Source: Azolla caroliniana (Eukaryota > Plantae > Polypodiophyta). Taken from it: a DNA stretch of 64,000 bases. Below the pieces are notes generated by a model. That model did no database searches and had not been told where the DNA came from. It worked only from the letters and a program-made list of their open reading frames with translations. Made by a program: the position numbers and the translations under genes. Positions within the stretch are counted from its first letter, which is position 1, and each line of letters starts with the position of its first letter. Shown one piece after another: positions 431 to 37,030 of this stretch. The stretch covers positions 16,678,001 to 16,742,000 of the forward strand of contig JBHGNT010000003.1 of NCBI GenBank assembly GCA_043228905.1, in the 5' to 3' direction.

Positions 431-3187
431 TCTATTGGTCTATTGGCATGCTAAGCTAACACAAGCTATTGGGAAAGATGTCTCTCCGGATGAGAAGAGA
501 AGTACCGTGTTGGTCAGTATCTTGGCCGAGGCCGAAACCGAAATCGAAATCGAAAACCGAAATCGTTTCGGAAGACTATAATTGAAAATAGTCTAAAATG
601 CCCCGCGTGGGCTATACTTGTAAATAGCCAAAAAGTTGCTTTTGTTTCTAAGAAACTAGGGCAAACTTTAGTAAGGGAGTAGTTGATCATGATTGAAAAG
701 TCAGAATGAGGTAGTAACTGCCTTTGTAACCATGAGTAAGAGAGTGAGAATGTAACTTTGTAGCCGTCTATTAGACGAAGGAGAACTCAAGGTTATTGCC
801 TCCGAGTTCTGTATCTGTACTTCCTCTCTACTATAGTGATCTGTTTTCTCGGGGTTTGTGGACCCCTGTGGTTTTTCCCATTTCGGGTTTTCCACATAAA
901 ATATCGGTGTCTCTGTGTCATCACATTTTTTTCTGTGTACTAGTTCTTGGCTTCTGCACACTACCACGAATGTGTAACCGGTTGTGGCCGATCGATTCCT
1001 AACAAAGTGGTATCAGAGTGATGGAAGACTCGTTCGGCATCATGTTTAAGCTAACCGGCTCCAACTACTTAGTGTGGAAGTCGAAGATGAGAGACATGCT
1101 CGTATGCAAAGACCTCTGGTTGTCAGTGTGCAGTTTGGAGATAAAAGATTAGACAAGATCGATGCAGCGACTTGGGAAGCGTTGCATCTGAAGGCGGTTG
1201 CATATATAAGGTGTTTTATAGACATGAGTCTATACAACAACTTCGGCGAAGAAACAGAAGCAGACGTTCTTCAGAAGAAGATCAATGTCATGTTTGAAAA
1301 CAAGAACGCCATGAATCGAGTCTTAGTATTTTGAAAAATTGTGAGGCTCCGGTGTCAAGATGGCTCCACTATGGTGGAGCACATGAATGACTTCCAAGGA
1401 TTGATGAACCAAACCACCTCTCTAGAAGTACCGCTGGCCGACGAGGTATTAACATTACTGTTCTTGGGATCCCTCTGGTAGTTGGGAGACGCTCGTTGTC
1501 ACTTTGGGCAACGCCGGGCTGGAAGGGAAGCATCTATCCCTAGAGTAGGTGAAGTGAAGCTTGCTGAATAAAGAAGCTCGCCGGAAGGACTGTGAGTCCA
1601 AGACCAACCAGAAGGCCTTAGTCATGGAAGGTGACATGATTCGGGGAAGAGGCTGAAATCAAAGTCCCTAGAACTGAGATAAGTCGGGGACCAGTCGTAT
1701 TCGAGGGGGAGGCCCAAGTGCTTCTATTGTGGGAAGCGAGAGCACTTCCAAAAAAACTGCCGACACTTTCGAAAGGAGAAAGGCGGAGTTGATAGGGTAG
1801 AGCTGAAGAAAATCCCGGACAGAAAGAACACCTCAGCAATCGCCACGAGTGAGGAGGAGTTGTTGCTCATCAGATAGCAAAACGAAGTGAATCTCGCTGG
1901 CGAAGAATTGACATGGGTGGTCGATTCGGGTGTGTCATTCCACCTAACCCCTGACCAAAAGTGCTTCTCATCCTACAAAGTTGGAGATCTCGGATCCGTA
2001 AACTTGGGAAATGAAGGAGCATGCCGAATCGTCATCATTAGAGATGTGTGTTTCGAAACATCAACCAGGTGCAAACTTGTGTTGAGAGATGTACGACACG
2101 TTTCGGAGGTTCGATTGAACCTAATATTAGGCGGTCAGCTAGATGATAAAGGCTACAAGGGTAGCATCCGTAACGGTGTCATGAAGTTCTGCAAGGGAAG
2201 TCTGATCGTGGCTCGAGCCCGGAAAACCAGCACACTATACATAATGAATGCTTGAATATGCCGAGGGGAAGCAAACATGGCAGCTGACACAGTCGGTGAA
2301 CTGTGGCACATGATATTGTGCCATATGAGCCAAAGGGGATGTGAAAGCTTGTCGAGGACAACCTCATTCTGGAGGTGAAGAACGTGCAACTTGAGAAGTG
2401 CATTGATTGCTTGGCTGGCAAGTAGAATCGAGCATCTTTCCAAATGAGGCCCCTGATGCGGAAGAAAATGTCGTTGGAGCTCGTGCATACAGACGTATGC
2501 TATGTGGACATGAAATTGCATGGTGGTTCACAGTATTTTGTGACCTTCATTGATGACTGTAGCAGGAAGTTGTGGGCTTCCGTTGTCATGAAGATTTTCA
2601 GCAATGATATGAAAATTGTGAGGAACATACAAAATCGAGTGTGGTTCTTTACACACAATATGAAACAATAATAGTAAAGATAATATTTTAGATTATTTTA
2701 ATATCTTGGTACGAAAAGATGGATGTCTTCAAGAGCTTCCGAATGTACTTTACTACATTTGAAACGGACAACTAAATGTCAAGTTATGTGAATGTGAAGT
2801 TTGAGAAGAAGAAGAGAAAAACAAAACTATGAGATATCCCATATAGATAAGACAAATCAGGATCCCACAGTATATAAGCAGAGCTAGAACTTATTACTTT
2901 TTGTCTATGTGTGAAGCACAGAATGTTCTTGGGCTAAACTGTGGCTTAACTACTCGTAATGGTTTTGGAGGACCGGATCGGATGGACAGCGATGAAACTG
3001 GAACCGGAACCGAAACCGAAACTGGACCGGCAGACGGCGTCGAACTGGAACCGGACGAGGACGGCAACCGAACCGGCACCGGCGGACGGCGGCGAACTAG
3101 AACCAGACAAGGACAACAACCAAACCGGCACCAGAACCGGACCGGATAGACCGGATCATCGGGTTGGATGCGGACCGGATGAACCAG

Positions 3188-3794
3188 TGTCGTGAAGAAT
3201 TTCGGCCATAGGCGAAAACCGGGAAACATTGGCTACATTGGTGGGGTGCAGCGTGTGTATGCACCCATGTACATTTAGTGTGAATATCGAGGGCGCCTTT
3301 ATGGCGCCAAAGAGTAGTCAAGTCGGGACAGATGATCCCATGTAAGTCGGGATTTGTCCCGCATTGTAATGCCTCCCTTTCCTTGTTCTATAAAAGGGAG
3401 GGAACGCCCTTTGTAAAAGGGTTTCCCATTTTGCATTAGAGGGTATACCGTTAGGTTTAGAGTTAGCTTCTTCTTCTTCTTCTCCTTCGTGTTCGCTTAG
3501 GGTTTGTTGCAGCTCATCTCCTGTGCAAGACCTCGCTCGGCGCGACGAGCCCGAGAGCTCCCCGACGCCGGCTTGGCAGCAGATGACCACTGTAACCTAC
3601 CTCGGTCCGGCTCGAAGCTGGGAATGTATTCTTCTTATATATATATATATATGTATGTTTGTCTGTGTATATTCACGTCGTTGTTGGCGTCGGGTGCTCA
3701 CCCCTTTCCTGCGTTTCCTGTACATAAGGGCGTGAGTCGGGTCAGGCTGTGTGTGCGCGTGTGTGCATGTGTGTGCGTGAGTCGGTGTTAAGCA

Positions 3795-3828
<34 letters not shown>

Positions 3829-34652: not shown

Positions 34653-34672
34653 AGACCCTAAACCCTAAACCC
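34653..34672 (-). repeat. Short interstitial plant telomere-type repeat
   Basis: Minus strand reads GGGTTTAGGGTTTAGGGTCT inside the gag of D. Confidence 0.7.
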
Positions 34673-35543
34673 TTTTCCTCCTCTAGGATCTTCTTCATGC
34701 CACCTTTCCGGAAGTTCGGTCGGAGTGGCTTCCGAGAGTCCATCGAATGAATCCAATTTCCCTCGTAGTAGATAAGATCCCGTCGTAACGCCTCCTTGTG
34801 CTCGTCTCAATCCCTCCGATCATGTTCGGTGCTATCGCACCATATGCATCGACGGTCCATATACTTGGAACTTGTGGGACGGTCATCCGACTTCTTCACC
34901 ATCGCGATTTTTAGATTCTCCATCTCCTTCAGCAACGGCTCCACCGTAGTTGCGTCGATTCCCTTCTCAGTTGTAGCTTCCCGAGCCCGCGGTTGATGGT
35001 CTTCCGATCCGGATCTCAGTTTCGGAATCGGTTCCGAAACCCTCTTTTCTTCGTTGGCAAGCCATTGCCCCCTCTTTGTGTATCGTGCGACAATATCCCG
35101 CACGCTTTCCCATGTTTCGGTGAGGCCACTCTCGGTATTCGTGTCCTCTAGAAGCACTCCAAGATCCTTCTGGTCCCGGACGTCTACAGCTCGTAAGAAC
35201 ATGATAACTTTGTCTGGTGCGAGGATAGCTTGATCTCTCGCAGACAACCTCCCGAACCGACTTTCGAATGCCGAAAACACATCGAGGACCTTCATCCCCT
35301 TGTCCGGCATTTCTACCCAATCCTCGAATCCTCTCTGCGTTGCCTTGGAGGAGTCCTCGATAGCGAACGTGGTCTTTAGCGCCTCTTCAAACGCTTCCCA
35401 TGTCGGATTTTGTTGTCGTAGCCCGTGGATACTTGCTTGAAACCCGTCGGTAGCCACCCGGTTGAAGGATGTCACTTGCAGTCCTTCCGAAATCCCGCAC
35501 CGTAGCATTTCCGCCTTGTAGTCCTGAAGATAGCGCGATACGT

Positions 35544-37030
35544 TGTCGTGAAGAAAACCGTCCCTTGGCGCAATCGGTGCATAGCGCGCGTGAACCGGAT
35601 CTTCACGTGTGCGCGCCCTTAATGTATATAATAGGGAATTAAGTACAAAGGCAGATCCGGGTAGTTAGATTCGGTAGGTAGGAAGTAAATGAGGGAGACG
35701 GCTCCCTTCTTGAAGCTATAAAGGAGACGGAGATGCAAGGAGAAGGGGATCGCGCATTAGGGAGGACGAAGTGTTGTCGGACCGTAACCGAACGCTTCTC
35801 CTCAGATTCGTTCTCCATCACTCTTCTCTGCAGGTTTTTCGGGAGGCTCGCGCTGCTTCGAGGAACGCCCGTGTGCTTCCGGCAGCACCTCCACCCTTTT
35901 CCCCTTTTCATGCGCAGACGAACAGGCATCGGCATCTGTTCGCCGGCCTGTTCGGTTGTAACCATTCGCATGCTCTGTTTTGTATTTGTTATTCGTTAAT
36001 ATACAAACACTTATGACTCCCTGTCTCTGTGTCCATTCGCGTCTTCTGTGTTGACGGGCCGTGCCCCTGTGTTTCTTTGCTCATACATGACCGGGCCTCT
36101 CTCTCCTTCTCTTTCCCCTTCTATCACCGGCTCTTCGGTTCAAGACCTCGGTGGTCCCGCCTCCTTTCTCCACGCACGCTCGTAGTAACACGACATCTTT
36201 GGTGAACCCGACATGAAACAGGCGGCAGAGGAGCAGAAGATGAGGGGGTCGGATCTTGCAGAGGCCATGGCTTCGGCCGTGGACCAGATAGTGAGCGCAC
36301 GCGAGGGCACCGGCGCCCTTGACAGGGCTATTGAGGCGATCGTTGGTATGATCGGCCGGTTCAGTGGAAAGGATGCGATGAGTTATTTGGCATCCTACCG
36401 GGCAGAGATGTTGATGAGGGATATTCTGGAACAGAGGCGTCTTGCCGGATTCCCTCGAGTGGCGATGCCGGGCATCCATGTGGAGGTGCTCGAGGTCGGG
36501 GCGGAGAGTCGGACCTGGGAGGAGTTCGAAGGACGGCTTCTGGAGAAATACGGGCTGGATGACGCAGTTCGACTTTCGAAGCGGAGCTTCATGGAGTGGG
36601 TGGAGTCCCCCAACAAAGAAAGAAATGCGTCGGTAGTCCTCCGGGAGTTTGAGGAAGGCTTTGCGCGCCTTTCGACGCTCGATCAGACCGTTCTGGACAC
36701 AAGTCGTGTCCTACTGTTTGTCAAATCGGTTACGCACGGGATCGGGGGCAAGTTGGCTCCTTACTAGAAACCGAAGACGGGCTGACGGCCGACTGGGCCG
36801 CGGTAAAAAGAGTTTGCGGCCGTTTTGACAAGCGGTGGGAGTGGGCTGATACAGAGGCGACCGGGGCACGACCTGTCGCAGCAAGGAAGCTCGAACCGAT
36901 ACCGCAGGCGCGAAGGGAAGAAAACCGGGAGTGGCTCGAGACCGGTTCGGCTTCGACCGGCGTGATCAGAGGCTCGTCCGGGGGAACAGCTCTGGAGGAG
37001 TTGACGCGAGCGGTAAAGGATCTCCAGATC
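35544..37030 (+). mobile_element. Gypsy G: 5' part (LTR, tRNA-Trp PBS, gag) of a C-like element
   Basis: LTR 35544-36195 (TGTCGTGAAGAAAACCGTCC..CACGACA), PBS TGGTGAACCCGACATGAA 36200-36217, gag from 36213 nearly identical to the C gag N-terminus; left flank ACGT. Confidence 0.88.

What the first reader, a model, noticed from the sequence alone, without database searches (positions are those of the whole stretch)
2580..35547. Gypsy lineage with 4-bp TSDs that appear always centred on CpG
Seen at all six readable insertion sites of TGTCG..CGACA elements: X1 CCGT/TTGT, B CCAG/CCGG, C GCGA/GCGC, X2 ACGT/ACGT, D left flank ACGT (18007-18010), G left flank ACGT (35540-35543). Each has an NCGN core, and most mismatches are C>T or G>A decay. 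Copia elements in the same window make 5-bp TSDs (GCATT, GCGCG). Inference: the integrase prefers NCGN, possibly methyl-CpG, which could steer it into other transposons without a chromodomain (none is evident after these integrases). The sample is small and the region is CpG-rich.
Basis: partly seen in the sequence, partly recalled or inferred. Interest (0 to 1): 0.72.

Follow-up and report, generated by a model that had tools for sequence, protein, structure and literature searches.

The report
Fern Phygy-like retrotransposons insert at CpG
These jumping genes, in what is likely a fern, almost always land on a CG pair and duplicate the four bases around it, a habit already published for the moss Phygy lineage to which they likely belong, and nothing found here shows that they sense methylation.

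Summary
Of 525 left junctions of one LTR family, 448 (85%) have CG at the centre of the 4-bp target and 499 (95%) have CG, TG or CA, against 3.8% CpG in random DNA. Where the left copy lacks CG, the right copy has it in 26 of 29 cases, so exceptions are later decay. Neumann et al. 2019 list Phygy (moss non-chromovirus Ty3/gypsy) as 4-bp TSD, NCGN, tRNA-Trp primer, no extra domain; these elements meet all four. Placement in the Phygy clade was not tested on a tree. Added here: the host is likely a fern; the motif is narrower, VCGB with ACGT sixfold enriched; and the integrase has a conserved QH-bearing loop where foamy-virus R329 sits. The methyl-CpG and steering ideas gain no support: insertion flanks are as repeat-rich (81%) as random CpG sites (80%) and Copia flanks (78%). 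No methylome was available. The scan noted an NCGN pattern before in another, likely fungal, genome (unchecked).

The parts
2584..8714 (+). X1: solo LTR (TGTCA..CGACA) inside a Copia integrase gene, itself interrupted by B; TSD CCGT 2580-2583 / TTGT 8715-8718
   Evidence: family of 124 pattern hits genome-wide
3188..8041 (+). B: 4.9-kb non-autonomous element, LTRs 3188-3968 and 7257-8041, tRNA-Trp PBS from 3973, PPT before 7257; TSD CCAG / CCGG
   Evidence: no Pfam hit in its longest ORF; 854 LTR starts genome-wide
10377..17007 (-). C: decayed autonomous-type element, 5' LTR 16316-17007, 3' LTR 10377-11059, gag-protease then RT-RNaseH-integrase; TSD GCGA / GCGC; inside a Copia RT gene
   Evidence: intact relatives
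11137..11634 (-). End of C's integrase: SH3-like C-terminal domain with the QH-bearing loop, then a short acidic tail and the PPT; no chromodomain
14090..14817 (+). X2: solo LTR inside C's pol; perfect TSD ACGT / ACGT
   Evidence: 439 pattern hits genome-wide
18011..35543 (-). D: truncated element, 3' LTR 18011-18912, pol and gag running to 35543, interrupted by two Copia elements; only the flank ACGT 18007-18010 is readable
35544..36195 (+). G: 5' LTR followed by tRNA-Trp PBS and gag, inserted in D's gag; 3' part not found in the window; only the flank ACGT 35540-35543 is readable
19492..24827 (+). Copia control element with 5-bp TSD GCATT
28289..34053 (+). Copia control element with 5-bp TSD GCGCG (its LTR also starts TGTCG)

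Best explanation
These Ty3/gypsy retrotransposons insert at a 4-bp palindromic target VCGB (ACGT best) and are likely fern members of the Phygy lineage, whose integrase likely picks the CG step by sequence and bendability rather than by its methyl group. Shown: target motif, 4-bp duplication, tRNA-Trp primer site, no chromodomain, later decay of the duplicated CG. Inferred: as in the foamy-virus intasome, a 4-bp stagger needs a sharp kink at the central base step, which favours pyrimidine-purine steps; two symmetric copies of the C-terminal beta1-beta2 loop (conserved L-x-x-Q-H-S...K-F here, R329 in foamy virus) likely add base contacts that narrow the choice to CG. Because CpGs in this genome lie mostly in repeats, about 80% of insertions end up in repeats without any tethering domain. 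Non-autonomous families (B, X2) likely borrow the same integrase.
For: 448 of 525 junctions CG, 499 of 525 CG/TG/CA, only 1 TA. Four families agree: 106 of 118 unique junctions CG; 1,889 C-family LTR starts follow CGN. Non-CG left flanks have CG on the right copy in 12 of 13 full elements, 13 of 15 solo LTRs and window element B. Flanking bias: A 90, C 49, G 35, T 4 before the CG against 40/51/29/58 expected (p 8e-25). PBS matches host tRNA-Trp (5 of 5 loci). Intact Pol has RT, RNase H, integrase only. REXdb: Phygy 4 bp (100%) NCGN, tRNA-Trp 81%, no extra domain. Best solved relatives are foamy-virus and Ty3 integrases; central YR unstacking and R329 in the beta1-beta2 loop from PMC4005685 passages. 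Q 96%, H 94%, K and F 100% conserved in 72 rows. Flanks match random CpG sites.
Against: No Physcomitrium Phygy sequence was in hand, so clade membership is by features only. Intact elements are 6.4-7.3 kb, below the published Phygy range of 7.7-10.0 kb. The role of the QH loop rests on position and conservation alone; the TSDs of most of the 71 homologues are unknown; the AlphaFold model is moderate (pLDDT 74, pTM 0.55) and has no DNA. The repeat test has limited power (118 sites, a 1.2-Mb-scale proxy library) and cannot separate methylated from unmethylated CpG if nearly all CpGs are methylated. Flanks are slightly more CpG-rich than random ACGT sites (0.055 vs 0.047, p=0.002).
Confidence: 0.8

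Rival explanations
1. The integrase reads the methyl group: it needs or strongly prefers symmetrically methylated CpG, so it lands in silenced DNA and avoids unmethylated gene starts without a chromodomain.
For: Strict CG with almost no TA, TG or CA at insertion is tighter than bendability alone predicts. Target CpGs decay to TG and CA symmetrically (24 and 27 of 525), so they are likely methylated, at least afterwards. 81% of flanks are repeats. CpG methylation was reported to alter retroviral target choice in vitro (Kitamura 1992; title seen in a reference list; content recalled, paper not held).
Against: Decay rate equals that of the CpG in the element's own PPT (11 of the first 100 listed), so it is explained by methylation after insertion. 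No depletion from non-repeat or CpG-poor DNA relative to random CpG sites (19% vs 20%). No methyl-binding or extra domain in Pol. CG-centred targets exist in Drosophila ZAM-group elements (CGCG, PMC5408687 passages), a host with little CpG methylation (recalled).
Confidence: 0.12
2. Same sequence-reading mechanism, but the elements form a separate sister lineage of Phygy (or a TatI/Selgy relative) rather than Phygy itself.
For: Shorter than published Phygy; Phygy was defined from one moss species; no named Physcomitrium protein among the 120 listed homologues; TatI also has 4-bp TSD and tRNA-Trp.
Against: TatI needs an archaeal-type RNase H, not found and with no room in Pol; Selgy uses tRNA-Ala and is about 5 kb; only Phygy is listed with NCGN; named homologues are from a liverwort (Riccia) at 46-65% identity and Phygy has been called in another liverwort (PMC12885004 passages).
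Confidence: 0.15
3. The pattern is an artefact of a small sample in CpG-rich DNA.
For: The window is CpG-rich (o/e about 1.0 over 1-44 kb).
Against: 85% CG against at most 8.7% background; Copia junctions from the same genome contain CG anywhere in only 3 of 23 five-mers, two of them the same insertion.
Confidence: 0.01

Closest known systems
Phygy lineage of non-chromovirus Ty3/gypsy (Neumann et al. 2019, PMC6317226; passages, section 9 and supplement MOESM5 read)
   Same: 4-bp TSD, NCGN motif, tRNA-Trp PBS, no chromodomain, no archaeal RNase H, no extra ORF, coding sequence fills the internal part
   Different: Host is likely a fern, not Physcomitrium; elements 6.4-7.3 kb rather than 7.7-10.0 kb; motif resolved here to VCGB with ACGT favoured; non-autonomous derivatives present
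TatI and Selgy (same paper, supplement MOESM5)
   Same: 4-bp TSD; TatI also uses tRNA-Trp; Selgy has overlapping gag and pol frames
   Different: TatI carries an archaeal RNase H (absent here); Selgy uses tRNA-Ala and is about 5 kb; no NCGN motif is listed for either
Ginger1 DNA transposons (PMC2836005, passages)
   Same: Gypsy-like integrase, 4-bp TSD centred on CG (CCGG 75%, CCGT/ACGG 24%)
   Different: DNA transposons with inverted repeats in animals; CCGG favoured there, not enriched here (0.74x)
Drosophila ZAM-subgroup errantiviruses (PMC5408687, passages)
   Same: Ty3/gypsy integrases with a palindromic, CG-containing 4-bp target (CGCG)
   Different: Central step of CGCG is GC, not CG; insect elements with env
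Prototype foamy virus intasome (PMC4005685, passages; PDB hits)
   Same: Closest solved integrase; 4-bp duplication with an unstacked central pyrimidine-purine step; base contacts from the CTD beta1-beta2 loop
   Different: Foamy virus has only a weak YR bias; here CG is nearly obligatory and the loop is longer with a conserved QH

Membership tests
Ty3/gypsy LTR retrotransposon | LTRs TG..CA, PBS, PPT, order Gag-PR-RT-RH-INT | tested here: met
   (intact copy L288)
Phygy | Falls in the Phygy clade on RT/RH/INT trees (the actual definition) | not testable with these tools
   REXdb sequence file and element table are too large to read; no named Physcomitrium homologue among 120 listed
Phygy | 4-bp TSD | tested here: met
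   17 of 20 fetched elements readable: 13 exact 4-bp pairs, 3 with one mismatch, 1 with two (ends read by eye; pairs picked from listings that showed the left flank); window pairs
Phygy | NCGN target motif | tested here: met
   448 of 525; 106 of 118
Phygy | tRNA-Trp primer-binding site | tested here: met
   PBS complement ends host tRNA-Trp(CCA) genes in 5 of 5 loci scanned
Phygy | No chromodomain, no archaeal RNase H, no extra ORF | tested here: met
   Pfam at E<=1 shows none; Pol ends about 70 bases before the 3' LTR; tails of homologues are short and acidic
Phygy | Length 7.7-10.0 kb (descriptive; the authors call size of little value for classification) | tested here: inconclusive
   6.4-7.3 kb here, just below the moss range
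TatI | Archaeal-type RNase H domain | tested here: not met
Selgy | tRNA-Ala PBS, about 5 kb | tested here: not met
   tRNA-Trp, about 7 kb
Chromovirus | Chromodomain after the integrase | tested here: not met
Methyl-CpG-directed integrase (hypothetical) | Target CpG must be methylated before insertion | not testable with these tools
   no bisulfite run was listed; indirect tests neutral

The most novel reading that the evidence does not exclude
An old integrase lineage shared by ferns, mosses and liverworts reads symmetric methyl-CpG directly through the QH loop of its C-terminal domain, making it a chromodomain-free integrase that targets a DNA epigenetic mark and so lands in silenced DNA.
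Probability: 0.12. Interest if true: 0.8.

Novelty: new member of a known kind. Interest (0 to 1): 0.3.

Why it matters
The core pattern is known, so the value is modest. It extends a near-obligate CpG-targeting plant integrase from one moss to a likely fern, where it has thousands of copies and some with identical LTRs, so the specificity is probably old and conserved. It is the one plant LTR lineage with a strict target motif, and the refined VCGB motif plus the conserved loop give a direct handle on how an integrase reads target bases. Requiring CpG also offers a simple passive route into repeat-rich DNA in genomes whose gene regions are CpG-poor. If the methyl group itself were read, that would be a new targeting principle.

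Tried and rejected
Chance or local composition: rejected. 5-bp TSD: rejected. General YR (TA/TG/CA) targeting: rejected, since non-CG copies are decay; only 1 of 29 such sites has the same non-CG 4-mer on both sides. Extra preference for repeats or CpG-dense DNA beyond picking a CpG: not found. Host as moss: the neighbouring TM9SF exon groups with ferns, support 86/96. Bisulfite data: none was listed, which is no evidence. ESM Atlas gave no useful taxa; cluster look-up gave no organism names. Depletion of C at position -8 of the left flank is an artefact of my search pattern and was discarded. Rows dropped: 3 of 121 junctions were mutated PPTs; 7 of 20 regions had no readable 3' LTR; 2 solo LTRs (L062, L074) had uncertain ends; 4 of 9 rows of the metagenome junction list were mis-called ends. 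Literature: 'NCGN' gave only PMC6317226 as relevant; 'Phygy'+'fern' gave 3 papers, two checked, neither reports Phygy in a fern; 'Phygy' 18 papers, listing only except those cited; searches listed no paper on a methyl-CpG-reading retrotransposon integrase (listings only). PMC7466625 passages do not mention target sites. REXdb's large supplements could not be read and may hold Phygy logos; fern genome papers in subscription journals were not searchable.
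Full report
Observation. The window is a stack of nested LTR retrotransposons. Four are pairs (X1, B, C, X2); D and G are truncated and show one flank each. For the pairs a 4-bp reading matches 12 of 16 bases and a 5-bp reading 3 of 20. At X1, a 4-bp duplication also keeps the host Copia integrase frame colinear with an uninterrupted paralogue, a 5-bp one would not (read by eye). The two Copia elements have perfect 5-bp TSDs.

Genome-wide test. The window lies in a 523-Mb genome. 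An 18-base LTR start of family B occurs 854 times; 329 follow the polypurine tract and are 3' LTRs. Of the other 525, the centre of the 4-mer is CG in 448, TG in 24, TA in 1, CA in 27, CC or CT in 6 and something else in 19 (by subtraction; some are likely mutated PPTs). CpG makes up 3.8% of positions in 40 random 10-kb stretches and 8.7% in the richest. Across four families, 106 of 118 unique left junctions have CG (B 36 of 38, X2 19 of 20, X1 16 and C 35 before dropping 3 mutated PPTs), and 1,889 C-family LTR starts follow CGN. A Copia family from the same window has CG anywhere in 3 of 23 five-base junctions.

The exceptions are decay. For sites whose left copy lacks CG, the right copy has CG in 12 of 13 readable full elements (20 fetched), 13 of 15 solo LTRs and window element B: 26 of 29. 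One more pair has decayed on opposite strands, one is TG on both sides, one is unrelated. So the target was CG almost without exception at insertion. The CpG inside the element's own PPT has decayed at the same rate, 11 of the first 100 listed (counted by eye), so the decay shows methylation after insertion and says nothing about the state before.

The motif is narrower than NCGN. Among 178 junctions (left and right; solo LTRs count twice) the base before CG is A 90, C 49, G 35, T 4 against 40, 51, 29, 58 expected from genomic CpG contexts (p 8e-25), mirrored after the CG (p 4e-28); weaker symmetric biases lie one and two bases outside the TSD (p 2e-5, 1e-4). ACGT is 6.2-fold enriched, TCGA 0.09-fold, CCGG 0.74-fold. 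The target is best written VCGB.

What the elements are. Of 20 fetched full-length copies, several have 99-100% identical LTRs and two overlapping frames, Gag-protease of about 720 codons and Pol of about 1,170. Pol holds RT, RNase H and integrase only; Gag-PR hits DUF4100. The primer site matches host tRNA-Trp in 5 of 5 loci. The integrase ends in an SH3-like domain and a short acidic tail in the alignment of 72 rows, with no chromodomain. B and X2 are non-autonomous families with the same ends and target. A neighbouring TM9SF exon is closest to fern proteins (75-79%) and groups with them (86/96), so the host is likely a fern. Relatives at 57-94% integrase identity in 80 metagenome loci mostly share the TGTCG start or the same primer site, and their 5 readable left junctions are CCGT, GCGG, CCGC, ACGT and GCAT; their hosts are unknown and many may be close kin.

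Known. Neumann et al. [quoted passage not shown] Jedlicka et al. 2019 (PMC6911290, passages) also find 4-bp TSDs with GC-rich centres and Phygy nested in other elements. All listed features but size are met; tree placement could not be tested. TatI is excluded by the missing archaeal RNase H, Selgy by the primer. I found no report of Phygy in a fern, but it has been called in a liverwort.

Mechanism. The closest solved integrases are foamy virus and Ty3. In foamy virus the 4-bp stagger unstacks the central step, favouring pyrimidine-purine steps, and R329 in the C-terminal beta1-beta2 loop and A188 contact bases (PMC4005685, passages). Here that loop carries Q (96%), H (94%), K and F (100%), and the A188 position is E (96%). 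I infer that bending plus symmetric base contacts from this loop make CG obligatory. This step is untested.

Methylation and steering. Flanks of insertions are repeat-derived in 96 of 118 cases, above random positions (356 of 600) but equal to random CpG sites (482 of 600), random VCGB sites (492 of 600) and Copia flanks (18 of 23) (repeat status judged by BLAST against the loci in hand, a rough proxy). Local CpG density gives the same picture, except that flanks are richer than random ACGT sites (p 0.002). So the lean into other transposons is real but passive: repeats hold most CpGs because gene-side DNA is CpG-poor (o/e about 0.4-0.5 against about 1.0). Nothing here requires methyl sensing, and nothing excludes it if nearly all CpGs are methylated.

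Verdict. Real, strong, already described for Phygy; likely a new host lineage and a refined motif. Interest 0.3.

Noticed in passing
window 14090-14817; L294, L295: X2 family full copies are 3.5 kb, carry only a Gag-protease frame and have 99.7-100% identical LTRs: a recently active non-autonomous derivative. B (4.9 kb) is another.
   Followed up: partly
LTR ends, e.g. window 3188-3193 and 3962-3968: The elements' own terminal CpGs sit in TCG and CGA contexts, exactly the ones the integrase avoids; might limit self-insertion at the ends, or be chance.
   Followed up: no
window 3969-3972, 36196-36199: The spacer between 5' LTR and primer site is 3-4 bases here and 1-7 in relatives, rather than the usual 2 (recalled).
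   Followed up: no
L277: Element with 99.7% identical LTRs but unlike flanks ACGT and GCGG, likely a recombinant of two insertions or an assembly join.
   Followed up: no
window about 37500-44000: A second, unrelated gypsy element (RNase H, integrase, long downstream frames) follows G's gag; looks Athila-like by recall, not tested.
   Followed up: no
window 50439-52476 (-): Exons of a TM9SF/EMP70 gene in CpG-poor DNA; used to place the host among ferns.
   Followed up: yes
G000 C8:17.80-17.82 Mb and C16:4.99-5.11 Mb: Clusters of tRNA-Trp-type 3' ends at about 1.2-kb spacing (62 hits genome-wide): tandem tRNA gene arrays.
   Followed up: no
G000 C14:16.917-16.926 Mb: Ten X1-family LTR starts at 939-base spacing with the same flank: a tandem array built from an LTR.
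   Followed up: no
window 28467-28944: 241-base tandem duplication at the 5' LTR and leader of the Copia element.
   Followed up: no
window 55768-56712 (-): 314-codon frame with a SWIM-like Cys/His pattern, possibly a Mutator remnant (by eye, not scanned).
   Followed up: no
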